Of a stretch of DNA of 64,000 nucleotides, positions 1-61,992 are shown piece by piece. Origin of the DNA: the human T2T-CHM13v2.0 reference genome, Homo sapiens; NCBI RefSeq assembly GCF_009914755.1, contig NC_060932.1. One strand, written 5' to 3'. Under the pieces are notes generated by a model. That model ran no database searches. It was not told where the DNA came from and saw only the letters and a list, made by a program, of their open reading frames with translations. The position numbers were made by a program, and so were the translations under genes. Every line of letters starts with the position of its first letter. Positions within the stretch are counted from its first letter, which is position 1.

Positions 1-1044
1 CTTGAGGGTGTTCAGGACCACGTTCAGGTACCTGTTCTTGTTGGGGCTGCAGTCGTAGGCCACCTTCTCCTCGTTCAGCGCCTTCTCCTCGGCCTCCTGC
101 TTGGAGGCGCAGAACTTGAGACACTCTTCGGTGAACAGTTGGAGATAGCCTCGGCGGAGGACGGTGGGGACTTGGCACCCAGAGCTTCGGAGGATAATGG
201 GTTTCTTCAAACTCAAACTCGGTAAGGATGCACGACGGACGATTCGCTTAGAGCTGGTGGTGGCGGTGGTCTTGCATGCCATCCCTGACCTGTTGCGCGT
301 CTTCCCTGGCTGTCTGCCGACCTTGGAGCCACGGGAGCGTTGGCTGCTGCTGGCCACCCGGGTTCTCTTGGCATCTGTGTAACCTGTGACCAAGCAAGGG
401 CTGGAAGAGTGGGCGATCGTCTTCCTCTTCCTGGGGGCTGAGATGCGGACTCCCGAGGGCCTCTCTGTCAGCCTTGGGGCGGCTGGCAAGCGGCAGGCCG
501 ATCCCCTCTGCGCAGGGAAGTAGCACGACTCCGTCACCATCTTGGGCCACGCTGGGGGCACCGCCGGACCCCTGTTCTGGGGCTCCGCCTGGATGTCCAC
601 AAATGCTGAGGCCTGCTTGTGCATCTGGGGCACCCAGAGCCCGAAGCTCTGGGCAGGCTGATGAGAGGGCAGTGGGAATTCTGGAGCCTCGAGGGCCGCC
701 TCCTCGGCCACCTTCTTAGCTTCTGGGTATCCAGGTGGGAACCAGCAGGGAGCTGTGGCTCGCAACATCTTGCTGCCTTCGGGAGCACCGGCCGGGCTCT
801 GCTCCGCTCCCAAATGGCGGCTTGCCTCCGGGGCCGCCTCCTTGGCCACCTTCTTAGCTTCTGGGTATCCAGGGCGGAACCAGCAGGGAGCTGTGGCTCG
901 CAACATCTTGCTGCCTTCGGGAGCACCGGCCTGGCTCTGCTCCCCTCCCAAATGGCGGCTTGCCTCCAGGGCCGCCTCCTCGGCCACCTTCTTAGCTTCT
1001 GGGTATCCAGGGGGGAACCAGCAGGGAGCTGTGGCTCGCAACAT
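1..1044 (-). CDS. REXO1L1: REXO1L/GOR exonuclease-like gene, 5' part (runs off the window start)
   Basis: ATG at 1044 ([10 protein letters not shown]...). Same sequence as the full copies. Confidence 0.85.
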   Translation of the reverse strand, partial: MLRATAPCWFPPGYPEAKKVAEEAALEASRHLGGEQSQAGAPEGSKMLRATAPCWFRPGYPEAKKVAKEAAPEASRHLGAEQSPAGAPEGSKMLRATAPCWFPPGYPEAKKVAEEAALEAPEFPLPSHQPAQSFGLWVPQMHKQASAFVDIQAEPQNRGPAVPPAWPKMVTESCYFPAQRGSACRLPAAPRLTERPSGVRISAPRKRKTIAHSSSPCLVTGYTDAKRTRVASSSQRSRGSKVGRQPGKTRNRSGMACKTTATTSSKRIVRRASLPSLSLKKPIILRSSGCQVPTVLRRGYLQLFTEECLKFCASKQEAEEKALNEEKVAYDCSPNKNRYLNVVLNTLK

Positions 1045-1099
1045 CTTGCTGCCTTCGGGAGCACCGGCCTGGCTCTGCTCCTCTCCCAACTGGCGGCTT
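686..1099 (-). repeat. 3 x 138-bp in-frame tandem repeat (46 aa) spanning the 5'UTR and N-terminus
   Basis: ATGs at 1044, 906 and 768, spaced 138 bp apart. Peptide [19 protein letters not shown] repeated three times. Confidence 0.95.
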
Positions 1100-1100
1100 C

Positions 1101-1261
1101 AATGAGTGCTGCGGCCGCCACTTGTCGCCTTTATATAGGCACAGGGCAGACTGGGTGGGACTTCTCCTTGATAGGTTGGTGCTTCAGTCCAATCACACTG
1201 AGCCTCATCTTCCACCAGACTCCAGCTTGGGAATGCCTCGGGGGGTGCGCTAATGGAATCA
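1101..1261 (-). promoter_or_regulatory. Predicted Pol II core promoter of the REXO1L copy
   Basis: Minus-strand TATATAAAG (1137-1129) and Inr-like CTCATT (1106-1101) about 30-34 bp downstream. GT box GGGTGGG at ~1153, CCAAT box at 1189-1193, TAATGGAATCA at 1251-1261. Confidence 0.7.
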
Positions 1262-1582
1262 ACTGGAACTCCCGGTTGCTAAACTTGGAGCTAGGTTGCT
1301 TTTCCTGAGTTAAGTAACTGTCCCTGCAGGGCAGTCCTATAATGGCTACTGGAATTGGGCTACCTAGGATTAAATTAAGGTTCAGGGAGGTTGGTCAACT
1401 TGCTTGGGCCCACACAGCACCCCTTGGAGCCAGGACTGGGCCAGCAGTCTGCTGCATGCTGGAGGGCGGGATCCCTCTGGGGCTGCCTTTCCCTGCTCTG
1501 TGCACTCCGCCGCTGCGGGCAAATTGAGGACAGGAAGCGGACCGCACCCACTTCTCTCCCAGGACTTGGGCAATGTTCAACA

Positions 1583-2471
1583 CAGGTGGTCTTCCAAAGG
1601 TTCATAGAAAATGCACATGGTGAAGAAACTATGCATGGATTTCCACTGGTGTGCACTAAAATAAACTTGTCCTAACTTCTGATAACCTTTCTGAACTAGA
1701 TCTAGTTTGAGGCACTAAGAAGGATGAGACATCCACTGAAAAGGACTCCCATCAGAGCAACATGAATTCCACGAAAACTGCAGCAAGAGGAAACATCAAA
1801 TTTATGGTGAAGCTTGGGTGGAAGATTGAAGAAATCATTGACGTTTTAAGAAAAGCTTGTAAGGACACTACCCCAAAGAAATGAACTCTTTACGAATGTA
1901 TAGCTTGTTTCAAGAAGAGGTGAGAAGATGTGGAAGATGAATCCTGCAGTGGCTGTGAAAACCACTGTGCCCAGATCAGCTGCAGTTACGACGAGAGCTA
2001 TCAGTGGAAATTTTAAACAGGAGGGATCACGATCCTGACTCATCCCTCTGACAAATTGTAAGCGGCAGTTGGAACATGGCTTCACCAATATGATCGCCAA
2101 GGCAAAGCATCATGAAAGCGATGGCTACCAAGAGGTGGCAGTGGTCCAGTCAAAGGAAAAGGAGGCCAGTCAGGAGCCCACATCATGGCATCAGTGTTTT
2201 GGGACACTCAAGGCATTTTGCTTGTTGACTTTCTGAAAGGCCAAACATCTGCTTATTAGGAGAGTGTTCTGAGAAGCTTAGATAAAGCTTTGGTAGAAAC
2301 ATGCTGGGAAAGTCTCACTAGATCCTTGTTCACCACATCAATGCTCTGCTCATTCCTCTCATCAAACAAGGGCAATTTTGTCAGTTTCAATGGGCAGTCC
2401 TTAGGAATTCACCTTACGGGCTGCTTTCATTCCTTCTAAATTCTTTTTGTTTCCTAATGATAAAAAGTCTC
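1583..2471 (+). mobile_element. Decayed Hsmar2 mariner DNA transposon (internal deletion, 3'-truncated)
   Basis: Left-TIR-like GGTCTTCCAAAGGTTCATAGAAAATG. ATG 1762 reads MNSTKTAARGNIKFMVKLGWK, followed by fragments WLPRGGSGPVK, VFWDTQGILLVDFL and FFLFPN. Contains stops and frameshifts. Confidence 0.88.
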
Positions 2472-2529: not shown

Positions 2530-4319
2530 ATGAGATCCTCCTCTTCTCTCCCAGGACAGAATGGTGAGACTTGAGTTTCCTTTCTCCTCATTCTTCTCCT
2601 CCTTGAGGGAGCTGCTGTGCCGGACAGACCTGCCCCCGTGTCTAGACACTGGTAGACTCGTTTAAGTTCCTCACAGGCAATCCTCCATGGGGTCAAAGTG
2701 GAAGGACTTATTTCTTCAGGGCTCAGTAGTCCACATCCTGGCGCGCACCTTCACCAGCCCAGGGCGGGGTAGAGGAGGGTGAAAGGGCGTGGCTCAGAGC
2801 CCGCTTCTTCCGCTCGGGCGTATCCTGGGAGGAACCCTTGTCCGGTGAGCATGTCTTCGTCTCTACCAAATTCCCTAGTGGGACATTTCTGGCAGCCCTA
2901 CTTGTTCAGCAGCTTACGGGGGTCAGGTGGACCTCTGCTAGTCACCAGCCTGAAGCCCTTTCTCCATTTCAGCTATTTTGGCAGTTGCCTAGGTGACTTT
3001 TGAACCTCATTATCCAGAACAGCAAACGGACGAGGGGTGAGAAGAGTGGCCGTCTGGGTTTGCAGCATAGTGCTGCCTTCTAGGAGTTGTGCAGTCTTCG
3101 ATTGTGTGAAACTTCACCTGGCTGATTTGTGGCAATGCCTCCACAAATTCGCTAAATTCAGTAGCTTTTGCCTTCCAAGATTCATTTACACAATGTTGAA
3201 TGCTTTAAAGGAATGAGCATGAAGAGTGCTGGGCTGGAAAGTGATGAGATGGGTGGTAGGGACTCCTCGGAGTAGAGGAGTAGAGTTTTACTATTATGAC
3301 TAGGAGGCAAATAAAAAGAAGCTGAACGTGATCCATAATAAAAGAAGCACACACTCACAGAGCTCCATACCAACTACATTAAAATGGAAATCATGATATT
3401 TGGAAATACAACTTAATTGGAAATCATTAAGTAATCTCATCAACCTTTTTACAGTGGGTGGCAGGGCTATGGAGGGAAAACAGCAATGGTTCTGGCACCT
3501 ACTTAACTTGATTCCATTAAATTCACCCAACAGGCCTCCAGAGAACATATTACTGCTTTGATATTACAAAGGGAAAAACAGCTATGGCGTCTCTGAAAAG
3601 CACAACGTGCTAGGACTGGAATGACTTTAAAACCACACATAAATTTCTGAGAGATTTTTGCCATAAGGTACCATCCACCTTACTGTAAACCACATCCTAA
3701 AATTGTCTGCAGTGCAAATGGATTATGTGCATCCAACAGGAAACAGCATAGGTTGAGAAGCTGTTACTTAATAGCTTCATTGTCACCACGAGTGTAAAAT
3801 GTGGGGTCTCATCACTTTTGCACCCACGTTTTGCCTGTTGGTTTCTCCACACTGTCAGGAGCATTTGACCAACTCACTGTGGCTCAGGGTCCCTTACGCA
3901 GCCTGTTGGGGAAACCAGTGGGTATTGAAGACCTGCCTCTGGTGTGCCAGGAGGTTGTGCCTGCCGGCCACTCTGACTTGCGATCTTCCGCCTCAGTGTA
4001 TGGCTTCCTACACCTGGATAATTAACATTGCCAGCATGATAAGGAGGTCCTTTCATCACTATTGCCACTAGTCCTTCCGACTCCTGTGCCCTGTTTCTCC
4101 TTTATTGGAACCCAAGAACGAGTAAACATAGCATTTTCAAACATCCCGCCCCCTTCCCTGGTAACACCAATATTCCACCATCCTAATTCCCTCACAAGCA
4201 TTCAGTCTCTCCACCCTGAGGTGGTGAAATCCCTGCAGGCATTTATAAGTATACCTGGACAGAAGAAATACAAGATACCGTTCTATTAACTCAATATAGT
4301 GTTGCTAAGTTCGTACTTT

Positions 4320-6970: not shown

Positions 6971-9900
6971 CGTTTTCCATTTTTTTTTAAATTATACTTT
7001 AATTACTAGGGTACATGTGCACAACGTGCAGGTTTATTACGTATGTAAGCACGTGCCATGTTGGTGTGCTGCACCCATTCACTAGTCATTTACATTAGGT
7101 ATATCTCTTAATGTTATCCCTCCCCCTCCCCCCGCCCATGACAGGCCCCGGTGTGTGATGTTCCCCTTTCTGCGTCCAAGTGTTCTCCTAGTTCAATTCC
7201 CACCTATGAGTGGGATCACGCGGTGTTTGGTTTTTTTGTCCTTGCGATAGTTTGCTAAGAATGATGGTTTCCAGCTTCATCCGTGTCCCTCCGAAGGGCA
7301 TGAACACATGCTTTTTTATGGCTGCATAGTATTCCACGGTGTATTTGTGCCACGTTTCCTTAATCCAGTCTATCATTGATGGACATCTGGGCTGGTTCCA
7401 AGTCTTTGCTACTGTGAACGGTGCCGCAATAAACATACGTCTGCGTGTGTCCTTTTAGCAGCATGATTTATAGTCCTATGGGTGTATACCCAGTAATGGG
7501 ACGGCTGGGTCAAATGGTATTTCTAATTCTAGATCCTTGAGGATTCGCCACACTATCTTCCACAACCGCTGAACTGGTTTACAGTCCCACCAGCAGTGTA
7601 AAAGTGTCCCTATTTCTCCACTACCTCTCCAGCACCTGTTGTTTCCTGACTTTTTTATTGATCGCTATTGTAACTGGTGTGAGACGATATCTCTTTGCGG
7701 ATTTGATTTGCATTTCTCTGATGACCAGTGTTGATGAGCATTTTTTCATGTGTCTGTTGGCTGCATAAATGTCTTCTTTTTAGAAGTGTCTCTTCATATC
7801 CTTCCCGCACTTGTTGATGGGGTTGTTTGGTTTTTCTTGTAACTCTGTTTGAGTTCTTAGTAGATTCTGGATATTAGCCCTTTGTCAGATGAGTAGATTG
7901 CAAAAATTTTCTCCCTTTCTGTAGCATGCCTGTTCACTCTGATGGGAGTTTCTTTAGCTGTGCAGAAACTCTTTAGTGTAATTAGATGCCGTTTGTCAAT
8001 ATTGGCTTTTGTTGCCTTTGCTTTTGGCGTTTTAGACATGAGGTCCTTGCCCATGCCTATGTCCTGAATGGTATTGCCTAGGTTTTCTCCTAGGGTTTGT
8101 ATGGCTTAAGATGTAACATTTAAGTCTTTCATCCGTCTTGAATAAACTTTTGTATAAGGTGTAAGGAAGGGATCCAATTTCACCTTCGGACATATGGCTA
8201 GCCAGTTTTCCCAGCACCATTTATTAAATAGGGAATCCTTTCCCCATTTCTTGTTTTTGTCAGGTTTGTCAAAGATCCGACGGTTGTAGATGTGTCGTAT
8301 TATTTCTGAGGGCTCTATTCTGTTCCATTGGTCTACAGTAACCAAAAAAAGGCAACCAACAGCATGCTGTTTGGTTACTGTAGGCTTGTAGTGTAGTTTG
8401 AAGTCGGGTAGCTTGATGCCTCCACCTTTGTTCTTTTGGCTTAGGATTATCTTGGCAGTGGGGGCCCTTTTGTGGTTCCATGTAAACTTTCAAGTAGTTT
8501 TTTCCAATTCTGTGAAGAAAGTCCTTGGTAGCTTGATGGGGATGGCATTGGATCTATAATATACCTTGGGCAGTATGGCCATTTTCACGATACTGATTCT
8601 TCCTAACCGTGAGCATGGAATATTCTTCCATTGGTTTGTGTCCTCTTTTATTTCGTGGAGCAGTGATTTGTAGTTCTCCTTGAAGAGGTCCTTCGCACAT
8701 CGCATCCCTTGTTAGTTGGATTCCTCAGAACTTTATTCTCTTTGAAGCAATTGTGAATGGGAGCTCAGTCATGATTTGGCTCTCTGTTTGCCTGTTATTG
8801 GTGTATGAGAATGCTTGTGTGTTTTGCACATCGATTTTGTATCCTGAGACTTTGCTGAAGTTGCTTATCAGCTTAAGGAGATTTTGGGCTGAGACGATGG
8901 GGTTTTCTAAATATTCAATCATGTCATCTACAAACAGGGACAATTTGACTTCCTCTTTTCCTAATTGATTACTCTTTATTTCTTTCTCCTGCCTGATTGC
9001 CCTGGCCAGAAGTTCCAACACTATGTTGAATAGGAGTGGTGAGAGAGGGCACCCCTGTCTTGTGGCAGTTTGCAAAGGGAATGCTTCCACTTTTTGCCCA
9101 TTCAGTATGATATTGGCTGTGGGTTTGCCCTAAATAGCCCTTATTATTTTGAGGTATGTCCCATCAGTACCTAATTTATTGAGAGTTTTTGGCATGAAAG
9201 GCTGTTGAATTTTGTCAAAGGCCTTTTCTGCATCTGTTGAGATAATCACGCGGTTTCTGTCTTTGGTTCCGATTATATGCTGGATTATGTTTATTGATTT
9301 GCATATGTTGGACCAGCCTTGCATGTCAGGGATGAAGCCCACTTGATCATAATGGATAAGCTCTTTGATGTGCTGCTGGATTCGGTTTGCCAGCATTTTA
9401 TGGAGGATTTTTCCATCGGTGTTCCTCAGGGATATGGGCCGAAAATTCTCTTTGTTGGTTGTGTCTCTCTCAGCCTTTGGGATCAGGATGATGCTGGCCT
9501 CATAAAATGAGATAGGGAGGATTCCCTCTTTTTCTGTTGATTGGAATAGTTTCCGAAGGAATGGTACCAGCTCCTCCTTGTACTTCTGGTAGAATTCGGC
9601 TGTGAATCCGTCTGGTCCTGGAGTTTTATTGCTTGATAGGCTATTAATTATTGCCTCAATTTCAGAGCCTGTTATTGGTCTATTCAGGCATTCAACTTCT
9701 TCCTGGTTTACTCTGGGGAGGTTGCATGTGTCCAGGAATTTATTCATTTCTTCTAGATTTCCGAGTTTGTTTGCCTAGAGGTGTTGACAGTATTCTCTCA
9801 TGGTAGTTTGTACTTCTGTGGGATCAGTGGTGATATCCCCTTTATCATTTTTTATTGCATCTGCTTGATTCTTCTTTCTTTCATTCTTTAATAGTCTTGC

Positions 9901-10644
9901 TAGTGGTCTATCAATTTTGTTGATGGTTTCAAAAAACCCGCTCCTGGATTCATTGATTTTTTGAAGGGTTTTTTGGGTCTCTATCTCCTTCAGTTCTGCT
10001 CGGATCTTAGTTATTTCTTGCCTTCTGCTAGCTTTTGAATGTGTTTGCTCTTGCTTCTCTCATCCTTTTAATGGTGATGTTAGGGTATGCATTTTTGATC
10101 TTTCCTGCTTTCCCTTGTGGGCATTTAGTGCTATAAATTTCCCTCTACACACTGCTTTAAATGTGTCCCAGAGATTCTGGTATGTTGTGTCTTTGTTCTC
10201 ATTGCTTTCAGAGAATATCTTTATTTCTGCCTTCATTTCGTTATGTACCCAGTACTCATTCAGGAGCAGCTTGTCCGGTTTCCATGCAGTTGAGCGGTTT
10301 TGAGTGAGTTTCTCAATCCTGAGGTCTAGTGTGATTGCAATGTGGTCTGAGAGACCGTTTGTAATAATTTCTGTTATTTTACTTTTACTGAGGAGTGCTT
10401 TACTTCCAACTATGTGGTCAATGTGGAAATAAGTGTGATGTGGTGCTGAGAAGAATGTATATTCTGTTGATTTGGGGTGGAGCGTTCTGTAGATGTCTCC
10501 TAGGTCCGCTTGGTGCAGAGCTGAGCTCAATTCCCGGATATCCTTTTTTAACTTTCTGTCTCGTTGGTGTGTCTAATGTTGACAGTGGGGTGTTAAGTTT
10601 GCCATTATTATTATTATTACTATGTGGGAGTCTAAGTCTCTTTT
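6971..10644 (-). mobile_element. 5'-truncated L1PA (roughly L1PA4-like), 3.67 kb, ORF2 disrupted
   Basis: ORF2 fragments from the endonuclease, RT ([21 protein letters not shown]) and C-terminal regions. Primate L1 3'UTR and a T-rich tail. 11-bp TSD GATCACACTTT at 6960-6970 and 10645-10655. Confidence 0.97.
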
Positions 10645-10775
10645 GATCACACTTTAAAGACCAAAAGGTAGAAGCGCAAAGACGTTATCTGTCCAATATT
10701 ACAAACCTAGTAAGTGGTGGAATTTGGCCTTGAACCCAGATCTGTAACTCCAGAGCCGAAGTGCTTCACCCACCT
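10645..10775 (-). mobile_element. MIR, second half (split by the L1PA insertion; recurs in every unit)
   Basis: CTAGTAAGTGGTGGAATTTGGCCTTGAACCCAGATCTGTAACTCCAGAGCC resembles antisense MIR. Confidence 0.65.
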
Positions 10776-10885
10776 CCCTGTGGTGCCTCTACAGAAAAAG
10801 AGGTAAGCAGGCATTCCGAAAGCTGGTGGGCCGGGGGGCTGGCCTTGTACTCAGAAGCCATGGAAGTCCCACGTGGGGTGGCTAG

Positions 10886-11081
10886 TGGTGTAAGGACAGA
10901 GGTCTCGGATGGGCAGAGGGATGTGGACAGGCGCGAGGGCGCGCGGCAGGGACTCGGGGGACTGGGAGTGGCGGCTCGGGGCTGCGGGAGGCGATTGGTG
11001 GAAGGACAGAGGTCTGGGAGGGGCAGAGGGATGTGGACAGGCCCGAGGGGCCGCGGCAGGGATTCCGGGGGACCGGGAGTG
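10886..11081. repeat. ~110-bp G-rich direct duplication downstream of the REXO1L stop (recurs in every unit)
   Basis: AAGGACAGAGGTCT..GGGCAGAGGGATGTGGACAGGC..GCGGCAGGGA..GGGAGTGG at 10892 and 11002. Confidence 0.85.
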
Positions 11082-11208
11082 GGGGGTTGGGGTTACTCTT
11101 GGCTTTTTGCCCTCTCCTGCCGCCGGCTGCTCCAGTTTCTTTCGCTTTGCGGCGAGGTGGGCAGGGTGAGCTCTCGGGACTGATGGCGGTTTTGGAAGAG
11201 GCCTGGGG

Positions 11209-13236
11209 CTAAGGACAGGCCAGGGCGGCGGGAGAGGCGGACCGGTGGCGTGGCTGGATCTGGGCGCGCTGTCGGACCTTCCACATCACCAGCTGCAGGC
11301 AGGCGTTTGCGTCCTCGCTGGAGTTGTGGCCGTCCTGGCTGTCCTGGATGATCTGTGCCAGGTAGTCGGCCGCGAGATTCCTGAGGGAGCGCTTGTAGGG
11401 GAAACCCAGGTAGTGCGGGAAGAGCACGGCCGTGTCCACCACGGTGCTGTGGATGAGCTTCAGGGCCAGCAGGTCGCTCTCCAGGCTGTGCCCGATGAGG
11501 ATGGTTTGGGCGCTGAAAAAGCTCAGCAGGATGGCTTGGACTTGGGGCAACGTGATGCTCGTCTTGGCGACGTCGGCCTCGGTGACTCCGGAAAACCTGG
11601 TGTTGTAGTCCACGATCTCGTTGTCGGGCTTGACGAAGGTGTCGTACACCACTCGCATGTCGGCGTCCACCACGGTGACGCGGGTCAGCTCTAGGCCATG
11701 CGTGGTGTAGCACATCTCACAGTCCAAGGCGTAGATTCCTGGATAAGCGTCTCTGGACAACTCTTTCTTGAAGGTCTCCACGAAGCCATCGAGGCTCTCC
11801 TTGCGGCCGTCCCGCACGTGCTGCTTTGCCACCTGGCAGCCCACAGAGCCAGGAGCAGCTGCACAGCAGGTGTACTGGCTAACCCGGCCTCCAGCCACCT
11901 GGCTCGAGCGGACCCGCCCCCAGTGATAATAACACAACTGGTCGCGTACACAGCGGCCCGAGGAGGACACCAGGTACTCGGTGCCACAACGGCAGCAGAC
12001 CCTGCAGGAGGAGTCGCCGGGCCCCTTCCCCTGGCCAGTGAAGAGGACGGCGCCTCCGGGCCGCTCGGGGTGCGGGAAGGGGTAGCCGTTCTCCTTGAGC
12101 TGGTCCTGGGTGAGCAGGAACTCCTGGAGGCGGCTGTACAGGGCGGCCCTGCTGAGGCCGGGCATGGAGCTGGGGGTCAGGCCCTTCAGTCTCTTGAGGG
12201 TGTTCAGGACCACGTTCAGGTACCTGTTCTTGTTGGGGCTGCAGTCGTAGGCCACCTTCTCCTCGTTCAGCGCCTTCTCCTCGGCCTCCTGCTTGGAGGC
12301 GCAGAACTTGAGACACTCTTCGGTGAACAGTTGGAGATAGCCTCGGCGGAGGACGGTGGGGACTTGGCACCCAGAGCTTCGGAGGATAATGGGTTTCTTC
12401 AAACTCAAACTCGGTAAGGATGCACGACGGACGATTCGCTTAGAGCTGGTGGTGGCGGTGGTCTTGCATGCCATCCCTGACCTGTTGCGCGTCTTCCCTG
12501 GCTGTCTGCCGACCTTGGAGCCACGGGAGCGTTGGCTGCTGCTGGCCACCCGGGTTCTCTTGGCATCTGTGTAACCTGTGACCAAGCAAGGGCTGGAAGA
12601 GTGGGCGATCGTCTTCCTCTTCCTGGGGGCTGAGATGCGGACTCCCGAGGGCCTCTCTGTCAGCCTTGGGGCGGCTGGCAAGCGGCAGGCCGATCCCCTC
12701 TGCGCAGGGAAGTAGCACGACTCCGTCACCATCTTGGGCCACGCTGGGGGCACCGCCGGACCCCTGTTCTGGGGCTCCGCCTGGATGTCCACAAATGCTG
12801 AGGCCTGCTTGTGCATCTGGGGCACCCAGAGCCCGAAGCTCTGGGCAGGCTGATGAGAGGGCAGTGGGAATTCTGGAGCCTCGAGGGCCGCCTCCTCGGC
12901 CACCTTCTTAGCTTCTGGGTATCCAGGTGGGAACCAGCAGGGAGCTGTGGCTCGCAACATCTTGCTGCCTTCGGGAGCACCGGCCGGGCTCTGCTCCGCT
13001 CCCAAATGGCGGCTTGCCTCCGGGGCCGCCTCCTTGGCCACCTTCTTAGCTTCTGGGTATCCAGGGCGGAACCAGCAGGGAGCTGTGGCTCGCAACATCT
13101 TGCTGCCTTCGGGAGCACCGGCCTGGCTCTGCTCCCCTCCCAAATGGCGGCTTGCCTCCAGGGCCGCCTCCTCGGCCACCTTCTTAGCTTCTGGGTATCC
13201 AGGGGGGAACCAGCAGGGAGCTGTGGCTCGCAACAT
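11209..13236 (-). CDS. REXO1L1: Intronless REXO1-like DEDDh 3'-5' exonuclease (GOR), 675 aa
   Basis: Uninterrupted ORF from the first ATG (13236) to TAG. ExoI ALDCEM, ExoII GHSLESD and ExoIII GHNSSED motifs, a Cys/His-rich region and a REXO1-like helical region. The exact paralog cannot be assigned, and several are catalogued as pseudogenes. Confidence 0.9.
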
Positions 13237-13291
13237 CTTGCTGCCTTCGGGAGCACCGGCCTGGCTCTGCTCCTCTCCCAACTGGCGGCTT
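12878..13291 (-). repeat. 3 x 138-bp coding repeat
   Basis: Copy of 686..1099. Confidence 0.95.
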
Positions 13292-13292
13292 C

Positions 13293-13453
13293 AATGAGTG
13301 CTGCGGCCGCCACTTGTCGCCTTTATATAGGCACAGGGCAGACTGGGTGGGACTTCTCCTTGATAGGTTGGTGCTTCAGTCCAATCACACTGAGCCTCAT
13401 CTTCCACCAGACTCCAGCTTGGGAATGCCTCAGGGGGTGCGCTAATGGAATCA
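13293..13453 (-). promoter_or_regulatory. Predicted core promoter (TATA/Inr/CCAAT/DUX-type site)
   Basis: Copy of 1101..1261. Confidence 0.7.
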
Positions 13454-23396: not shown

Positions 23397-25424
23397 CTAA
23401 GGACAGGCCAGGGCGGCGGGAGAGGCGGACCGGTGGCGTGGCTGGATCTGGGCGCGCTGTCGGACCTTCCACATCACCAGCTGCAGGCAGGCGTTTGCGT
23501 CCTCGCTGGAGTTGTGGCCGTCCTGGCTGTCCTGGATGATCTGTGCCAGGTAGTCGGCCGCGAGATTCCTGAGGGAGCGCTTGTAGGGGAAACCCAGGTA
23601 GTGCGGGAAGAGCACGGCCGTGTCCACCACGGTGCTGTGGATGAGCTTCAGGGCCAGCAGGTCGCTCTCCAGGCTGTGCCCGATGAGGATGGTTTGGGCG
23701 CTGAAAAAGCTCAGCAGGATGGCTTGGACTTGGGGCAACGTGATGCTCGTCTTGGCGACGTCGGCCTCGGTGACTCCGGAAAACCTGGTGTTGTAGTCCA
23801 CGATCTCGTTGTCGGGCTTGACGAAGGTGTCGTACACCACTCGCATGTCGGCGTCCACCACGGTGACGCGGGTCAGCTCTAGGCCATGCGTGGTGTAGCA
23901 CATCTCACAGTCCAAGGCGTAGATTCCTGGATAAGCGTCTCTGGACAACTCTTTCTTGAAGGTCTCCACGAAGCCATCGAGGCTCTCCTTGCGGCCGTCC
24001 CGCACGTGCTGCTTTGCCACCTGGCAGCCCACAGAGCCAGGAGCAGCTGCACAGCAGGTGTACTGGCTAACCCGGCCTCCAGCCACCTGGCTCGAGCGGA
24101 CCCGCCCCCAGTGATAATAACACAACTGGTCGCGTACACAGCGGCCCGAGGAGGACACCAGGTACTCGGTGCCACAACGGCAGCAGACCCTGCAGGAGGA
24201 GTCGCCGGGCCCCTTCCCCTGGCCAGTGAAGAGGACGGCGCCTCCGGGCCGCTCGGGGTGCGGGAAGGGGTAGCCGTTCTCCTTGAGCTGGTCCTGGGTG
24301 AGCAGGAACTCCTGGAGGCGGCTGTACAGGGCGGCCCTGCTGAGGCCGGGCATGGAGCTGGGGGTCAGGCCCTTCAGTCTCTTGAGGGTGTTCAGGACCA
24401 CGTTCAGGTACCTGTTCTTGTTGGGGCTGCAGTCGTAGGCCACCTTCTCCTCGTTCAGCGCCTTCTCCTCGGCCTCCTGCTTGGAGGCGCAGAACTTGAG
24501 ACACTCTTCGGTGAACAGTTGGAGATAGCCTCGGCGGACGACGGTGGGGACTTGGCACCCAGAGCTTCGGAGGATAATGGGTTTCTTCAAACTCAAACTC
24601 GGTAAGGATGCACGACGGACGATTCGCTTAGAGCTGGTGGTGGCGGTGGTCTTGCATGCCATCCCTGACCTGTTGCGCGTCTTCCCTGGCTGTCTGCCGA
24701 CCTTGGAGCCACGGGAGCGTTGGCTGCTGCTGGCCACCCGGGTTCTCTTGGCATCTGTGTAACCTGTGACCAAGCAAGGGCTGGAAGAGTGGGCGATCGT
24801 CTTCCTCTTCCTGGGGGCTGAGATGCGGACTCCCGAGGGCCTCTCTGTCAGCCTTGGGGCGGCTGGCAAGCGGCAGGCCGATCCCCTCTGCGCAGGGAAG
24901 TAGCACGACTCCGTCACCATCTTGGGCCACGCTGGGGGCACCGCCGGACCCCTGTTCTGGGGCTCCGCCTGGATGTCCACAAATGCTGAGGCCTGCTTGT
25001 GCATCTGGGGCACCCAGAGCCCGAAGCTCTGGGCAGGCTGATGAGAGGGCAGTGGGAATTCTGGAGCCTCGAGGGCCGCCTCCTCGGCCACCTTCTTAGC
25101 TTCTGGGTATCCAGGTGGGAACCAGCAGGGAGCTGTGGCTCGCAACATCTTGCTGCCTTCGGGAGCACCGGCCGGGCTCTGCTCCGCTCCCAAATGGCGG
25201 CTTGCCTCCGGGGCCGCCTCCTTGGCCACCTTCTTAGCTTCTGGGTATCCAGGGCGGAACCAGCAGGGAGCTGTGGCTCGCAACATCTTGCTGCCTTCGG
25301 GAGCACCGGCCTGGCTCTGCTCCCCTCCCAAATGGCGGCTTGCCTCCAGGGCCGCCTCCTCGGCCACCTTCTTAGCTTCTGGGTATCCAGGGGGGAACCA
25401 GCAGGGAGCTGTGGCTCGCAACAT
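23397..25424 (-). CDS. REXO1L1: REXO1L/GOR exonuclease copy (L296V variant)
   Basis: Intact 675-aa ORF. SNV at 24539 gives PTVVRR. Confidence 0.9.
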
Positions 25425-35586: not shown

Positions 35587-37614
35587 CTAAGGACAGGCCA
35601 GGGCGGCGGGAGAGGCGGACCGGTGGCGTGGCTGGATCTGGGCGCGCTGTCGGACCTTCCACATCACCAGCTGCAGGCAGGCGTTTGCGTCCTCGCTGGA
35701 GTTGTGGCCGTCCTGGCTGTCCTGGATGATCTGTGCCAGGTAGTCGGCTGCGAGATTCCTGAGGGAGCGCTTGTAGGGGAAACCCAGGTAGTGCGGGAAG
35801 AGCACGGCCGTGTCCACCACGGTGCTGTGGATGAGCTTCAGGGCCAGCAGGTCGCTCTCCAGGCTGTGCCCGATGAGGATGGTTTGGGCGCTGAAAAAGC
35901 TCAGCAGGATGGCTTGGACTTGGGGCAACGTGATGCTCGTCTTGGCGACGTCGGCCTCGGTGACTCCGGAAAACCTGGTGTTGTAGTCCACGATCTCGTT
36001 GTCGGGCTTGACGAAGGTGTCGTACACCACTCGCATGTCGGCGTCCACCACGGTGACGCGGGTCAGCTCTAGGCCATGCGTGGTGTAGCACATCTCACAG
36101 TCCAAGGCGTAGATTCCTGGATAAGCGTCTCTGGACAACTCTTTCTTGAAGGTCTCCACGAAGCCATCGAGGCTCTCCTTGCGGCCGTCCCGCACGTGCT
36201 GCTTTGCCACCTGGCAGCCCACAGAGCCAGGAGCAGCTGCACAGCAGGTGTACTGGCTAACCCGGCCTCCAGCCACCTGGCTCGAGCGGACCCGCCCCCA
36301 GTGATAATAACACAACTGGTCGCGTACACAGCGGCCCGAGGAGGACACCAGGTACTCGGTGCCACAACGGCAGCAGACCCTGCAGGAGGAGTCGCCGGGC
36401 CCCTTCCCCTGGCCAGTGAAGAGGACGGCGCCTCCGGGCCGCTCGGGGTGCGGGAAGGGGTAGCCGTTCTCCTTGAGCTGGTCCTGGGTGAGCAGGAACT
36501 CCTGGAGGCGGCTGTACAGGGCGGCCCTGCTGAGGCAGGGCATGGAGCTGGGGGTCAGGCCCTTCAGTCTCTTGAGGGTGTTCAGGACCACGTTCAGGTA
36601 CCTGTTCTTGTTGGGGCTGCAGTCGTAGGCCACCTTCTCCTCGTTCAGCGCCTTCTCCTCGGCCTCCTGCTTGGAGGCGCAGAACTTGAGACACTCTTCG
36701 GTGAACAGTTGGAGATAGCCTCGGCGGAGGACGGTGGGGACTTGGCACCCAGAGCTTCGGAGGATAATGGGTTTCTTCAAACTCAAACTCGGTAAGGATG
36801 CACGACGGACGATTCGCTTAGAGCTGGTGGTGGCGGTGGTCTTGCATGCCATCCCTGACCTGTTGCGCGTCTTCCCTGGCTGTCTGCCGACCTTGGAGCC
36901 ACGGGAGCGTTGGCTGCTGCTGGCCACCCGGGTTCTCTTGGCATCTGTGTAACCTGTGACCAAGCAAGGGCTGGAAGAGTGGGCGATCGTCTTCCTCTTC
37001 CTGGGGGCTGAGATGCGGACTCCCGAGGGCCTCTCTGTCAGCCTTGGGGCGGCTGGCAAGCGGCAGGCCGATCCCCTCTGCGCAGGGAAGTAGCACGACT
37101 CCGTCACCATCTTGGGCCACGCTGGGGGCACCGCCGGACCCCTGTTCTGGGGCTCCGCCTGGATGTCCACAAATGCTGAGGCCTGCTTGTGCATCTGGGG
37201 CACCCAGAGCCCGAAGCTCTGGGCAGGCTGATGAGAGGGCAGTGGGAATTCTGGAGCCTCGAGGGCCGCCTCCTCGGCCACCTTCTTAGCTTCTGGGTAT
37301 CCAGGTGGGAACCAGCAGGGAGCTGTGGCTCGCAACATCTTGCTGCCTTCGGGAGCACCGGCCGGGCTCTGCTCCGCTCCCAAATGGCGGCTTGCCTCCG
37401 GGGCCGCCTCCTTGGCCACCTTCTTAGCTTCTGGGTATCCAGGGCGGAACCAGCAGGGAGCTGTGGCTCGCAACATCTTGCTGCCTTCGGGAGCACCGGC
37501 CTGGCTCTGCTCCCCTCCCAAATGGCGGCTTGCCTCCAGGGCCGCCTCCTCGGCCACCTTCTTAGCTTCTGGGTATCCAGGGGGGAACCAGCAGGGAGCT
37601 GTGGCTCGCAACAT
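35587..37614 (-). CDS. REXO1L1: REXO1L/GOR exonuclease copy (G360C variant)
   Basis: Intact 675-aa ORF. SNV at 36537 gives MPCLS, plus a synonymous SNV at 35749. Confidence 0.9.
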
Positions 37615-47775: not shown

Positions 47776-49803
47776 CTAAGGACAGGCCAGGGCGGCGGGA
47801 GAGGCGGACCGGTGGCGTGGCTGGATCTGGGCGCGCTGTCGGACCTTCCACATCACCAGCTGCAGGCAGGCGTTTGCGTCCTCGCTGGAGTTGTGGCCGT
47901 CCTGGCTGTCCTGGATGATCTGTGCCAGGTAGTCGGCCGCGAGATTCCTGAGGGAGCGCTTGTAGGGGAAACCCAGGTAGTGCGGGAAGAGCACGGCCGT
48001 GTCCACCACGGTGCTGTGGATGAGCTTCAGGGCCAGCAGGTCGCTCTCCAGGCTGTGCCCGATGAGGATGGTTTGGGCGCTGAAAAAGCTCAGCAGGATG
48101 GCTTGGACTTGGGGCAACGTGATGCTCGTCTTGGCGACGTCGGCCTCGGTGACTCCGGAAAACCTGGTGTTGTAGTCCACGATCTCGTTGTCGGGCTTGA
48201 CGAAGGTGTCGTACACCACTCGCATGTCGGCGTCCACCACGGTGACGCGGGTCAGCTCTAGGCCATGCGTGGTGTAGCACATCTCACAGTCCAAGGCGTA
48301 GATTCCTGGATAAGCGTCTCTGGACAACTCTTTCTTGAAGGTCTCCACGAAGCCATCGAGGCTCTCCTTGCGGCCGTCCCGCACGTGCTGCTTTGCCACC
48401 TGGCAGCCCACAGAGCCAGGAGCAGCTGCACAGCAGGTGTACTGGCTAACCCGGCCTCCAGCCACCTGGCTCGAGCGGACCCGCCCCCAGTGATAATAAC
48501 ACAACTGGTCGCGTACACAGCGGCCCGAGGAGGACACCAGGTACTCGGTGCCACAACGGCAGCAGACCCTGCAGGAGGAGTCGCCGGGCCCCTTCCCCTG
48601 GCCAGTGAAGAGGACGGCGCCTCCGGGCCGCTCGGGGTGCGGGAAGGGGTAGCCGTTCTCCTTGAGCTGGTCCTGGGTGAGCAGGAACTCCTGGAGGCGG
48701 CTGTACAGGGCGGCCCTGCTGAGGCCGGGCATGGAGCTGGGGGTCAGGCCCTTCAGTCTCTTGAGGGTGTTCAGGACCACGTTCAGGTACCTGTTCTTGT
48801 TGGGGCTGCAGTCGTAGGCCACCTTCTCCTCGTTCAGCGCCTTCTCCTCGGCCTCCTGCTTGGAGGCGCAGAACTTGAGACACTCTTCGGTGAACAGTTG
48901 GAGATAGCCTCGGCGGAGGACGGTGGGGACTTGGCACCCAGAGCTTCGGAGGATAATGGGTTTCTTCAAACTCAAACTCGGTAAGGATGCACGACGGACG
49001 ATTCGCTTAGAGCTGGTGGTGGCGGTGGTCTTGCATGCCATCCCTGACCTGTTGCGCGTCTTCCCTGGCTGTCTGCCGACCTTGGAGCCACGGGAGCGTT
49101 GGCTGCTGCTGGCCACCCGGGTTCTCTTGGCATCTGTGTAACCTGTGACCAAGCAAGGGCTGGAAGAGTGGGCGATCGTCTTCCTCTTCCTGGGGGCTGA
49201 GATGCGGACTCCCGAGGGCCTCTCTGTCAGCCTTGGGGCGGCTGGCAAGCGGCAGGCCGATCCCCTCTGCGCAGGGAAGTAGCACGACTCCGTCACCATC
49301 TTGGGCCACGCTGGGGGCACCGCCGGACCCCTGTTCTGGGGCTCCGCCTGGATGTCCACAAATGCTGAGGCCTGCTTGTGCATCTGGGGCACCCAGAGCC
49401 CGAAGCTCTGGGCAGGCTGATGAGAGGGCAGTGGGAATTCTGGAGCCTCGAGGGCCGCCTCCTCGGCCACCTTCTTAGCTTCTGGGTATCCAGGTGGGAA
49501 CCAGCAGGGAGCTGTGGCTCGCAACATCTTGCTGCCTTCGGGAGCACCGGCCGGGCTCTGCTCCGCTCCCAAATGGCGGCTTGCCTCCGGGGCCGCCTCC
49601 TTGGCCACCTTCTTAGCTTCTGGGTATCCAGGGCGGAACCAGCAGGGAGCTGTGGCTCGCAACATCTTGCTGCCTTCGGGAGCACCGGCCTGGCTCTGCT
49701 CCCCTCCCAAATGGCGGCTTGCCTCCAGGGCCGCCTCCTCGGCCACCTTCTTAGCTTCTGGGTATCCAGGGGGGAACCAGCAGGGAGCTGTGGCTCGCAA
49801 CAT
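47776..49803 (-). CDS. REXO1L1: REXO1L/GOR exonuclease copy
   Basis: Intact 675-aa ORF, same protein as 11209..13236. Confidence 0.9.
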
Positions 49804-59964: not shown

Positions 59965-61992
59965 CTAAGGACAGGCCAGGGCGGCGGGAGAGGCGGACCG
60001 GTGGCGTGGCTGGATCTGGGCGCGCTGTCGGACCTTCCACATCACCAGCTGCAGGCAGGCGTTTGCGTCCTCGCTGGAGTTGTGGCCGTCCTGGCTGTCC
60101 TGGATGATCTGTGCCAGGTAGTCGGCCGCGAGATTCCTGAGGGAGCGCTTGTAGGGGAAACCCAGGTAGTGCGGGAAGAGCACGGCCGTGTCCACCACGG
60201 TGCTGTGGATGAGCTTCAGGGCCAGCAGGTCGCTCTCCAGGCTGTGCCCGATGAGGATGGTTTGGGCGCTGAAAAAGCTCAGCAGGATGGCTTGGACTTG
60301 GGGCAACGTGATGCTCGTCTTGGCGACGTCGGCCTCGGTGACTCCGGAAAACCTGGTGTTGTAGTCCACGATCTCGTTGTCGGGCTTGACGAAGGTGTCG
60401 TACACCACTCGCATGTCGGCGTCCACCACGGTGACGCGGGTCAGCTCTAGGCCATGCGTGGTGTAGCACATCTCACAGTCCAAGGCGTAGATTCCTGGAT
60501 AAGCGTCTCTGGACAACTCTTTCTTGAAGGTCTCCACGAAGCCATCGAGGCTCTCCTTGCGGCCGTCCCGCACGTGCTGCTTTGCCACCTGGCAGCCCAC
60601 AGAGCCAGGAGCAGCTGCACAGCAGGTGTACTGGCTAACCCGGCCTCCAGCCACCTGGCTCGAGCGGACCCGCCCCCAGTGATAATAACACAACTGGTCG
60701 CGTACACAGCGGCCCGAGGAGGACACCAGGTACTCGGTGCCACAACGGCAGCAGACCCTGCAGGAGGAGTCGCCGGGCCCCTTCCCCTGGCCAGTGAAGA
60801 GGACGGCGCCTCCGGGCCGCTCGGGGTGCGGGAAGGGGTAGCCGTTCTCCTTGAGCTGGTCCTGGGTGAGCAGGAACTCCTGGAGGCGGCTGTACAGGGC
60901 GGCCCTGCTGAGGCCGGGCATGGAGCTGGGGGTCAGGCCCTTCAGTCTCTTGAGGGTGTTCAGGACCACGTTCAGGTACCTGTTCTTGTTGGGGCTGCAG
61001 TCGTAGGCCACCTTCTCCTCGTTCAGCGCCTTCTCCTCGGCCTCCTGCTTGGAGGCGCAGAACTTGAGACACTCTTCGGTGAACAGTTGGAGATAGCCTC
61101 GGCGGAGGACGGTGGGGACTTGGCACCCAGAGCTTCGGAGGATAATGGGTTTCTTCAAACTCAAACTCGGTAAGGATGCACGACGGACGATTCGCTTAGA
61201 GCTGGTGGTGGCGGTGGTCTTGCATGCCATCCCTGACCTGTTGCGCGTCTTCCCTGGCTGTCTGCCGACCTTGGAGCCACGGGAGCGTTGGCTGCTGCTG
61301 GCCACCCGGGTTCTCTTGGCATCTGTGTAACCTGTGACCAAGCAAGGGCTGGAAGAGTGGGCGATCGTCTTCCTCTTCCTGGGGGCTGAGATGCGGACTC
61401 CCGAGGGCCTCTCTGTCAGCCTTGGGGCGGCTGGCAAGCGGCAGGCCGATCCCCTCTGCGCAGGGAAGTAGCACGACTCCGTCACCATCTTGGGCCACGC
61501 TGGGGGCACCGCCGGACCCCTGTTCTGGGGCTCCGCCTGGATGTCCACAAATGCTGAGGCCTGCTTGTGCATCTGGGGCACCCAGAGCCCGAAGCTCTGG
61601 GCAGGCTGATGAGAGGGCAGTGGGAATTCTGGAGCCTCGAGGGCCGCCTCCTCGGCCACCTTCTTAGCTTCTGGGTATCCAGGTGGGAACCAGCAGGGAG
61701 CTGTGGCTCGCAACATCTTGCTGCCTTCGGGAGCACCGGCCGGGCTCTGCTCCGCTCCCAAATGGCGGCTTGCCTCCGGGGCCGCCTCCTTGGCCACCTT
61801 CTTAGCTTCTGGGTATCCAGGGCGGAACCAGCAGGGAGCTGTGGCTCGCAACATCTTGCTGCCTTCGGGAGCACCGGCCTGGCTCTGCTCCCCTCCCAAA
61901 TGGCGGCTTGCCTCCAGGGCCGCCTCCTCGGCCACCTTCTTAGCTTCTGGGTATCCAGGGGGGAACCAGCAGGGAGCTGTGGCTCGCAACAT
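59965..61992 (-). CDS. REXO1L1: REXO1L/GOR exonuclease copy
   Basis: Intact 675-aa ORF, same protein as 11209..13236. Confidence 0.9.

What the first reader, a model, noticed from the sequence alone, without database searches (positions are those of the whole stretch)
1101..1377. DUX4-type double-homeodomain site in a TATA promoter: candidate embryonic-genome-activation exonuclease array
Seen: TAATGGAATCA at 1251-1261, about 150 bp upstream of the predicted start, is an exact match to the DUX4 consensus TAAYBBAATCA. A second paired-type site, TAATTTAATCC (minus strand, 1367-1377), contains the K50 homeodomain core TAATCC. A well-spaced TATA/Inr/CCAAT set follows, and these motifs are the same in all six units. 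Known: DUX4 activates multicopy cleavage-stage genes such as ZSCAN4, PRAMEF and TRIM43, and DUX4 and USP17L are themselves intronless genes inside macrosatellites. Inference: the array could give a copy-number-dependent burst of RNA exonuclease at genome activation, for example for maternal or repeat RNA turnover. Short-read pipelines would miss it because reads multimap.
Basis: partly seen in the sequence, partly recalled or inferred. Interest (0 to 1): 0.8.

Follow-up and report, generated by a model that had tools for sequence, protein, structure and literature searches.

The report
DUX4-like motif in GOR repeat promoter
Each unit of the known human 8q21.2 GOR/REXO1L1 tandem repeat really carries an exact DUX4-type DNA motif just upstream of a TATA-box promoter, but nothing available here shows that DUX4 uses it, so it remains an untested candidate.

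Summary
TAATGGAATCA sits at 1251-1261 in 6 of 6 unit copies. That is 148-158 bp upstream of an Inr-like A (1103), behind a TATATAAA box and a CCAAT box. TAATTTAATCC is at 1367-1377 in 6 of 6. I also found a second exact copy at 3509-3519 and a one-mismatch site at 3432-3442. Local-composition simulations put 0.015 exact sites in the 2.5 kb upstream, against 2 observed. The clustering therefore exceeds chance for this one motif.

The interpretation could not be tested.
- No ChIP or RNA data can be remapped with these tools.
- Ten text searches found no printed link between REXO1L and DUX4 or early embryos.
- Two DUX4-related supplement sets list ZSCAN4 but no REXO1L row.
- Both exact sites carry a GG spacer, which I recall as non-preferred.
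- The 3-kb gene part is methylated in CHM13 (PMC8099727).

The array, the gene and its copy-number variation are already known. All five complete copies in the window keep an intact 675-aa ORF with aligned DEDDh residues. My estimate is about 0.2 that this is a true DUX4-driven cleavage-stage array. About 0.5 is an ordinary recruited TATA/CCAAT promoter with unused motif matches.

The parts
1251..1261 (+). Exact match to the DUX4 consensus TAAYBBAATCA (TAATGGAATCA), at -148..-158 from the Inr-like A1103. Repeated at 13443, 25631, 37821, 50010 and 62199.
   Evidence: 6 of 6 units; mean 0.0023 expected in the proximal 300 bp
1367..1377 (-). One-mismatch DUX-type site TAATTTAATCC, containing TAATCC, at -264..-274. 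Present in 6 of 6 units.
1189..1193 (+). CCAAT box at -86..-90 (inverted relative to the gene)
1130..1137 (-). TATA box TATATAAA. The first T of TATAAA (1135) lies 32 bp upstream of A1103.
1099..1105 (-). Inr-like TCATTGA with A at 1103. This is a putative, unmeasured transcription start and fits YYANWYY at 5 of 7 positions.
   Evidence: sequence only
1..1044 (-). 5' part of a GOR/REXO1L1 ORF, with ATG at 1044, open to the window edge. 347 of 348 residues are identical to the full copy at 23397-25424.
686..1099 (.). Three 138-bp (46-codon) tandem repeats forming the 5' end of the ORF. Each carries its own in-frame ATG (M1, M47, M93).
3432..3442 (+). One-mismatch DUX-type site TAATCTCATCA in the distal AT-rich cluster, about -2.33 kb
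3509..3519 (-). Second exact TAATGGAATCA, about -2.41 kb, in 5 of 5 units that reach this far. It is not a duplicate of the proximal site: only 12 nt are shared.
2116..2256 (+). Decayed mariner-type transposase remnant (Pfam PF01359 Transposase_1, E 4.8e-07, 30 bits against a cut-off of 24). It lies between the proximal and distal motif clusters.
23397..25424 (-). Complete intronless 675-aa GOR ORF (P0001). It has an EloA-BP1 domain at 281-357 and a DEDDh exonuclease domain at 499-659. Equal-length intact ORFs lie at 11209-13236, 35587-37614, 47776-49803 and 59965-61992.
10220..10225 (-). First AATAAA on the gene strand after the stop codon at 11209, about 990 bp downstream. This implies a transcript of roughly 3.1 kb if it is used.

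Best explanation
The stretch is the proximal promoter of one unit of the known 12.19-kb 8q21.2 GOR/REXO1L1 macrosatellite. An intronless REXO1-derived ORF on the minus strand sits behind a core promoter that its position upstream of an intronless ORF suggests was recruited from flanking DNA. That promoter has TATATAAA at about -32, an Inr-like start and a CCAAT box at about -88, and would be read by TBP/TFIID and NF-Y.

The DUX4-type 11-mer at -148..-158 is a real exact consensus match. So is the second exact copy 2.4 kb upstream. On present evidence they are most likely latent sites that do not drive the array. They carry a non-preferred GG spacer. The gene-plus-promoter block is DNA-methylated in the one cell type with data. 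The gene is absent from the DUX4-related tables I could inspect.

Shown: the motifs, their spacing, the tandem structure, the intact ORFs and the conserved catalytic residues.
Inferred: the start site, the factors that read the core promoter, and the lack of use by DUX4.
For: - Motif and core-promoter layout.
- Tandem units of 12,188-12,192 bp, differing at 95 of 12,192 aligned columns.
- Zero matches in the window to TAAYYBAATCA or TAAYBYAATCA, so both exact sites use G,G at the two B positions.
- PMC8099727 (passages): the 3-kb region corresponding to REXO1L1 is the methylated part of each unit in CHM13.
- The supplements of PMC8990217 (4 files) and PMC7224571 (4 files) hold ZSCAN4 but no word starting REXO1L.
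- 6 papers hold both 'REXO1L1' and 'DUX4'. The one I read (PMC4063668, passages) names them only as two separate high-copy arrays.
- 19 papers hold 'REXO1L' and 'embryo', and none is about early embryos by title.
- 16 papers hold 'DUX4' and '8q21', and none is about DUX4 targets by title.
- A single exact match of an 11-mer with this information content is expected somewhere in a 300-bp promoter for one or two of several hundred transcription-factor consensus motifs. This follows from 0.0023 per motif; the motif count is my estimate.
Against: The sites cluster more than chance allows for this motif. There are 2 exact sites against 0.015 expected, and 4 sites with up to one mismatch against 0.54 expected, in the 2.5 kb upstream. 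Per unit there are 8 sites with up to one mismatch against about 2.8 expected.

The two exact sites are independent occurrences, not a duplication.

From recalled knowledge (Young et al. 2013, not seen), a DUX4 site within 200 bp upstream of a TATA box is the layout from which DUX4 fires retroelement-derived promoters.

The negative literature evidence is weak.
- Supplements are not covered by the text search.
- One searched file was cut when stored.
- Pipelines that drop multi-mapping reads would hide a 26-to-70-copy gene.
- Paper reading closed, so no further tables could be checked.

Methylation in a mole-derived cell line says little about the 4-8-cell embryo.
Confidence: 0.5

Rival explanations
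1. DUX4 binds the exact sites at -150 and -2.4 kb, possibly helped by the one-mismatch partners. It recruits p300/CBP and fires the TATA promoter of every unit during cleavage-stage genome activation. The result is a copy-number-dependent burst of a DEDDh RNA exonuclease. The array is methylated and silent elsewhere.
For: - Exact consensus in 6 of 6 units at -148..-158, with a second exact site and two near sites.
- Enrichment over local composition.
- A strong TATA box with canonical spacing.
- 5 of 5 complete copies keep an intact 675-aa ORF. D505, E507, D588, H637 and D642 align with the DEDDh positions of SDN1 5z9x.
- Variable columns are 7.6-fold rarer in the gene-plus-promoter block (4 in 3,042 bp against 91 in 9,150 bp, binomial P 6e-8). 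That would fit constraint.
- DUX4's role in the early cleavage-stage wave of transcription is stated in the abstract starts listed (e.g. PMC6886682).
Against: - There are no occupancy or expression data.
- REXO1L is absent from the two supplement sets searched and from every DUX4 or embryo paper text searched.
- The GG spacer fits neither narrower consensus form.
- The gene block is methylated in CHM13.
- The low-variation block coincides with the GC-rich block. It could equally reflect biased homogenisation, and its boundaries were chosen after seeing the data.
Confidence: 0.2
2. The sites are used, but by other paired-like homeodomain proteins rather than DUX4. Candidates are DUXA, or K50-type factors reading TAATCC (OTX2, CRX, PITX, LEUTX and the TPRX class). 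They would activate or repress the units in embryo, germline or another tissue.
For: - TAATTTAATCC at 1367-1377 holds the TAATCC core and misses the DUX4 consensus only at its last base.
- The clustering statistic applies to any factor that reads this family of sites.
- The abstract start of PMC10514451 says the three human DUX genes were compared and that family members antagonise each other.
Against: - TAATCC is a 6-mer found 7 times in the first 13.4 kb of the window, about one unit, so it carries no weight alone.
- There is no P3 palindrome TAATNNNATTA in the unit.
- There are no binding or expression data.
- The specificities named are recalled, not tested here.
Confidence: 0.1
3. The stretch is not the working promoter at all. 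Either the units are silent pseudogene copies, or transcription starts elsewhere in the unit. It could start from the open, hypomethylated 9-kb part that binds PU.1 and the lincRNA PIRAT in monocytes. In that case the TATA/CCAAT/homeodomain layout is coincidental.
For: - The locus is officially named a pseudogene (REXO1L1P). RefSeq models in the hub table give coding parts only, with no 5' UTR and no measured start.
- PMC9457492 (passages) reports alternating PU.1 and PIRAT sites along the open chromatin of the repeat in CD14+ monocytes.
- A canonical AAAGAGGAAGT lies at 8948-8958 (-), far from this promoter.
- The gene block is methylated in CHM13.
- There is no AATAAA within about 990 bp after the stop.
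Against: - The ORF is intact in 5 of 5 complete copies.
- TATA at -32, CCAAT at -88 and a 59-nt leader to the first ATG make a textbook layout.
- Chance retention of five 675-aa ORFs is unremarkable among near-identical copies, so this argues only weakly either way.
Confidence: 0.1

Closest known systems
8q21.2 REXO1L1/GOR 12.192-kb VNTR (macrosatellite; recurrent neocentromere site)
   Same: It is this locus. The unit length of 12,188-12,192 bp matches the 12.192 kb in PMC8099727 (passages). Copy-number range and primate expansion are given in PMC4063668 (passages).
   Different: Neither paper, in the passages I saw, mentions homeodomain or DUX4 motifs, a promoter layout, or embryonic expression.
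DUX4 direct-target multicopy gene families
   Same: A primate-expanded multicopy gene with an exact DUX4 consensus close to the start.
   Different: Those families have shown DUX4 occupancy and induction, whereas GOR has neither in anything I could search. Its sites also use a GG spacer. I could not fetch the promoters of the known targets to compare them.
D4Z4/DUX4 and RS447/USP17L macrosatellites (recalled; D4Z4 also in PMC4063668)
   Same: A tandem array of multi-kb units, each with an intronless ORF, with very high and variable copy number and methylation-linked silencing.
   Different: The unit is 12.19 kb with a 2-kb ORF and about 9 kb of hypomethylated spacer that can seat CENP-A. No disease-linked derepression is known.
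REXO1 / SDN1 / ISG20 DEDDh 3'-5' exonucleases
   Same: The domain at 499-659 matches SDN1 5z9x_A (E 1.6e-27), ISG20 1wlj_A (E 1.6e-15) and ISG20L2 7yw5_A (E 7.7e-12). The D, E, D, H and D positions are kept. The Pfam EloA-BP1 domain is present, as in REXO1.
   Different: The N-terminus is made of three 46-residue repeats not seen in those chains. Pfam RNase_T did not reach E 0.01. Activity has never been tested here.
REXO1LP repeat as a PU.1 'cache' guided by the lincRNA PIRAT (PMC9457492)
   Same: Same array. The idea is the same: many identical transcription-factor sites in one array could matter through copy number.
   Different: That work concerns PU.1 in monocytes and sites elsewhere in the unit, and nothing there concerns DUX4. 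Two exact DUX4-type sites per unit, times the 108-266 diploid copies in PMC4063668, gives a few hundred sites. By my extrapolation, about 0.57 chance sites per 64 kb scales to tens of thousands genome-wide, so these would be a small share.

Membership tests
DUX4 direct-target promoter | One or more DUX4 consensus sites (TAAYBBAATCA) close to the transcription start | tested here: met
   Exact site at -148..-158 in 6 of 6 units, with a second exact site at -2.4 kb. Both have a GG spacer and fit neither TAAYYBAATCA nor TAAYBYAATCA.
DUX4 direct-target promoter | DUX4 occupancy in ChIP-seq or CUT&Tag | not testable with these tools
   No read data can be mapped here, and no paper found reports it.
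DUX4 direct-target promoter | Induction on DUX4 expression, and expression in 4-8-cell embryos or 8C-like cells | tested here: inconclusive
   The supplements of PMC8990217 and PMC7224571 hold ZSCAN4 but no REXO1L row. One file was cut when stored, and multi-mapping or annotation filters could explain the absence. Paper reading closed, before other tables could be searched.
Macrosatellite-borne intronless gene array | Head-to-tail units of several kb with near-identical sequence | tested here: met
   Periods are 12,192, 12,188, 12,190, 12,189 and 12,189 bp. Pairwise differences are 12-60 mismatches per unit.
Macrosatellite-borne intronless gene array | An uninterrupted ORF in each unit | tested here: met
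   5 of 5 complete copies have a 675-aa ORF with no internal stop. The sixth copy, cut by the window edge, is open over its 348 visible codons.
DEDDh (RNase T / REXO1) exonuclease | Exo I D-x-E, Exo II D and Exo III H-x4-D residues | tested here: met
   ALDCEM (D505, E507), GHSLESDL (D588) and GHNSSEDA (H637, D642) align with AVDCEM, GHSLNRDL and the H-x4-D of SDN1 5z9x. That these are the catalytic positions is family knowledge, not tested here.
DEDDh (RNase T / REXO1) exonuclease | Exonuclease activity on RNA | not testable with these tools
   Needs an enzyme assay.
TATA-box core promoter | A TATA box about 30 bp upstream of a measured transcription start | tested here: inconclusive
   TATAAA lies 32 bp before an Inr-like A, but no measured start is available. 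RefSeq models give coding parts only.

The most novel reading that the evidence does not exclude
The GOR array is a silent-by-methylation, DUX-family-driven cleavage-stage gene battery. At genome activation, DUX4 would fire some 50-130 TATA promoters per haplotype at once. That would give a copy-number-dependent pulse of an exonuclease that still carries REXO1's Elongin-A-binding domain. Such an enzyme could act on nascent, maternal or repeat RNA. Its dose would differ several-fold between people, and more so between apes.
Probability: 0.15. Interest if true: 0.65.

Novelty: new member of a known kind. Interest (0 to 1): 0.3.

Why it matters
If DUX4 really drives this array, one of the largest and most copy-variable gene arrays in the human genome would gain a developmental role. 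PMC4063668 reports 108-266 diploid copies in humans and up to about 860 in a gorilla. The human genome-activation programme would gain an RNA-degrading enzyme whose dose varies between individuals.

It would also add a candidate to the genes misexpressed when DUX4 is derepressed in muscle disease and cancer.

If the reading is wrong, the case is a useful caution. An exact consensus match, and even a statistically enriched cluster, is only a lead. The test is cheap: existing ChIP-seq and RNA-seq data can be remapped to a single unit.

Tried and rejected
1. Inverted duplication. The two exact 11-mers lie in opposite orientation 2,258 bp apart, so I asked whether they are arms of an inverted duplication or transposon ends. 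I rejected this. The repeat finder found no such arms. Local alignment of the two neighbourhoods gives only the shared 12 nt, with a score of 24 against a null mean of 17.7, reached by 4 of 200 shuffles.

2. Narrower consensus forms. TAAYYBAATCA and TAAYBYAATCA give 0 matches each in the window.

3. Paired-type P3 palindrome. There is none in the unit.

4. Conservation across all units or the whole genome. No whole genome is held for this window, so only 5.2 units could be compared. They are too alike to inform on an 11-bp site.

5. Earlier findings of this scan.

6. Further supplement searches. I planned the embryo 5'-end dataset and more DUX4 RNA-seq tables. One search failed on a term format and one search reported paper reading closed, so I made no further attempt. 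As a result Warburton 2008 (PMC2588610), the REXO1L1 deletion report (PMC4422118) and the proteomics paper naming 'exonuclease GOR' (PMC7320927) were seen only as search listings.

7. Literal search for the 11-mer and its reverse complement. 33 papers hold one of them. None of the 25 listed is a DUX4 paper, and two concern human satellites 2 and 3.

8. Retroelement LTR origin of the promoter. This could not be tested because no repeat library is on hand. The only repeat I could name is a mariner transposase remnant at 2116-2256.

Full report
**What the window is.** By the hub's table the window is T2T-CHM13 chr8:86,242,001-86,306,000. It holds 5.2 head-to-tail units of a repeat with periods of 12,192, 12,188, 12,190, 12,189 and 12,189 bp. 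The five complete units differ from each other by 12-60 mismatches and vary at 95 of 12,192 aligned columns. This is the known 12.192-kb 8q21.2 VNTR that carries REXO1L1/GOR. [quoted passage not shown] PMC4063668 (passages) reports 108-266 diploid copies in 165 HapMap people, about 450-550 in bonobo and chimpanzee, 400-860 in gorilla and about 22 in macaque.

**The observation.**
- TAATGGAATCA is at 1251-1261 on the plus strand and fits TAAYBBAATCA exactly. It recurs at the same unit position in all six copies present.
- TAATTTAATCC is on the minus strand at 1367-1377, also in 6 of 6 copies.
- The gene runs on the minus strand. On that strand the sequence reads CCTATATAAAGG...GCACTCATTGAAGCC...GCAAGATGTTG.
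- TATATAAA occupies 1137->1130. An Inr-like TCATTGA has its A at 1103, 32 bp after the first T of TATAAA.
- A CCAAT box is at 1189-1193 (-86..-90). The first ATG is at 1044, giving a 59-nt leader.
- The DUX4-type site is thus at -148..-158 and the second site at -264..-274.
- The Inr fits YYANWYY at only 5 of 7 positions, and no measured start is available. RefSeq models give coding parts only.
- The six copies of the 500 bp from 1101 differ at one position (1240 G/A). With units this alike, that carries no information about constraint.

**More than chance?** The window has 11 exact matches against a mean of 0.57 in 100 dinucleotide-preserving shuffles. The matches are copies of two sites per unit, so the fair comparison is 2 against about 0.11 per unit.

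It is the same 11-mer on the minus strand at 3509-3519, present in 5 of 5 units that extend that far. Allowing one mismatch gives 43 matches against 14.93 expected, or 8 against about 2.8 per unit. Four of the eight lie in the 2.5 kb upstream of the gene, as two pairs: 1251 with 1367, and 3432 (TAATCTCATCA) with 3509.

Simulations from a first-order Markov model of the local sequence gave:

| Region | Measure | Simulated mean | Observed | Simulations reaching observed |
|---|---|---|---|---|
| Proximal 300 bp | exact sites | 0.0023 | 1 | fraction 0.0023 of 3,000 |
| 2.5 kb upstream | exact sites | 0.015 | 2 | 0 of 600 |
| 2.5 kb upstream | sites with up to one mismatch | 0.54 | 4 | fraction 0.005 of 600 |

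The two exact sites are not a duplication. No inverted repeat joins them, and local alignment of their neighbourhoods finds only 12 shared bases. So for this one motif the clustering is real.

There are caveats. The motif was chosen after reading the sequence. Several hundred factor motifs of similar information exist, so one or two exact hits of some factor are expected in any 300 bp. The windows were also set after the fact.

**Quality of the sites.** Both exact sites have G,G at the two degenerate B positions. Neither TAAYYBAATCA nor TAAYBYAATCA occurs anywhere in the window. I recall these narrower forms, and a pyrimidine-rich spacer in the best in-vitro site, from Geng et al. 2012 and Lee et al. 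2018. A literal search for the 11-mer and its complement found 33 papers. None of the 25 listed is a DUX4 paper, and two are on human satellites 2 and 3.

**The gene behind the promoter.**
- All five complete units carry an uninterrupted 675-aa ORF: 11209-13236, 23397-25424, 35587-37614, 47776-49803 and 59965-61992. The copy cut by the window start is open over 348 codons, 347 of them identical.
- Among the five ORFs only three nucleotide positions vary: L/V at codon 296, G/C at codon 360, and one silent change.
- The protein (P0001) has Pfam EloA-BP1 at 281-357 (E 2.9e-39).
- Its C-terminal domain at 499-659 matches SDN1 5z9x (E 1.6e-27), ISG20 1wlj and ISG20L2 7yw5.
- D505, E507, D588, H637 and D642 align with the DEDDh motif positions.
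- The 5' end of the ORF is three 138-bp repeats, each with its own in-frame ATG.
- 'Exonuclease array' is therefore a fair description of the coding potential, although the locus is officially called a pseudogene.

**Evidence on the DUX4 reading.** I could not remap any ChIP or RNA data.

Text searches:

| Search terms | Papers found | Outcome |
|---|---|---|
| REXO1L1 and DUX4 | 6 | The one I read (PMC4063668) names them as separate arrays |
| REXO1L | 61 | 40 listed, none on embryos by title |
| REXO1L and embryo | 19 | 18 listed, none about preimplantation development by title |
| DUX4 and 8q21 | 16 | None on DUX4 targets by title |
| T2T-CHM13, genome activation, 8-cell and tandem | 1 | About the D20S16 satellite (PMC12287470, abstract start only) |

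One search was a poorly framed search and gave nothing on REXO1L.

Supplement searches of PMC8990217 (DUX4 in hESC and embryo, 4 files, one cut when stored) and PMC7224571 (FSHD2 myotube nuclei, 4 files) found ZSCAN4 but no REXO1L.

[quoted passage not shown] Several blood-cell expression papers name REXO1L genes (listings only). PMC9457492 shows PU.1 and the lincRNA PIRAT on the array's open chromatin in monocytes (passages). The array is therefore not wholly invisible to standard pipelines.

**Weighing.**

*For a DUX-family role:* an exact site at the right distance from a strong TATA box, a second exact site, two near sites, enrichment over local composition, intact ORFs, and membership of the class of primate-expanded multicopy genes that DUX4 is known to favour.

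*Against:* the non-preferred spacer (recalled), no trace in any text or table I could search, and methylation of the block in the one cell type with data. Consensus sites are also far more numerous in the genome than genes that respond. Extrapolating one search's 0.57 chance sites per 64 kb gives tens of thousands genome-wide.

*My estimates:*
- about 0.2 that DUX4 truly drives the units at genome activation;
- about 0.1 that another paired-like factor uses the sites;
- about 0.1 that this is not the working promoter;
- about 0.5 that it is an ordinary recruited TATA/CCAAT promoter whose homeodomain-type matches are unused.

**Novelty.** The array, its gene, its copy-number variation, its methylation pattern, its neocentromere role and its PU.1 binding are all in print. 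The DUX4-site observation is not in any text I could search. If true, it would add a new member to a known kind, namely DUX4-target multicopy genes.

Noticed in passing
window 11209-13236, 23397-25424, 35587-37614, 47776-49803, 59965-61992 (minus strand): All five complete units have the same intact 2,028-bp (675-aa) ORF. The RefSeq table gives a 957-bp coding part for three of them and the full 2,028 bp for one. It gives no gene at all for the copy at 35587-37614. The annotation is therefore uneven rather than the DNA.
   Followed up: yes
window 10549-13442 plus 1251-1650 (one unit, circularly): Inter-unit variable columns are 7.6-fold rarer in the GC-rich gene-plus-promoter block: 4 in 3,042 bp against 91 in 9,150 bp, binomial P 6e-8. 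This is the same roughly 3-kb block that PMC8099727 reports as the methylated part of each unit. A methylated CpG-rich block (CpG o/e 0.4-1.0) would be expected to vary more, not less. The boundaries were chosen after seeing the data, and only five units were compared.
   Followed up: partly
window 23397-25424 (-), residues 281-357 of P0001: GOR keeps the Elongin-A-binding domain (Pfam EloA-BP1, E 2.9e-39). PMC4063668 singles out REXO1L1 and TCEB3C (an Elongin A paralogue array) as the two most extreme copy-number cases, both highest in gorilla and chimpanzee. They might be a co-amplified binding pair. One search gave listings only, and no ELOA3 sequence was available to test binding.
   Followed up: no
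window 686-1099 (and each unit): There are three in-frame 138-bp repeats at the 5' end of the ORF, each with its own ATG (M1, M47, M93). Two of the three also carry CAAATGGCGGC (811-821, 949-959), which resembles the YY1 core as I recall it. The third reads CAACTGGCGGC.
   Followed up: partly
window 8948-8958 (-): AAAGAGGAAGT, a canonical PU.1-type ETS site as I recall the consensus, occurs once per unit in the hypomethylated spacer. It may underlie the repeated PU.1 peaks reported in monocytes (PMC9457492).
   Followed up: no
window 2116-2256 (+), with fragments from about 1711 to 2570: A decayed mariner-type transposase remnant (Pfam Transposase_1, E 4.8e-07, 30 bits against a cut-off of 24) lies between the proximal promoter and the distal motif cluster, on the strand opposite to GOR.
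   Followed up: partly
window 3380-3520: This is an AT-rich patch (GC 0.40 for 3201-3600). It holds several related words around the distal exact site: AAATGGAAATCATGA, AATTGGAAATCATTA and TAATCTCATCA, plus the exact TAATGGAATCA on the other strand. It could be a homeodomain-site cluster or a decayed simple repeat.
   Followed up: no
window 10220-11208 (-): There is no AATAAA or ATTAAA on the gene strand for about 990 bp after the stop codon. The first is at 10220-10225. Directly after the stop lies a 400-bp block with GC 0.66 and strong G-over-C skew on the plus strand (10801-11200).
   Followed up: no
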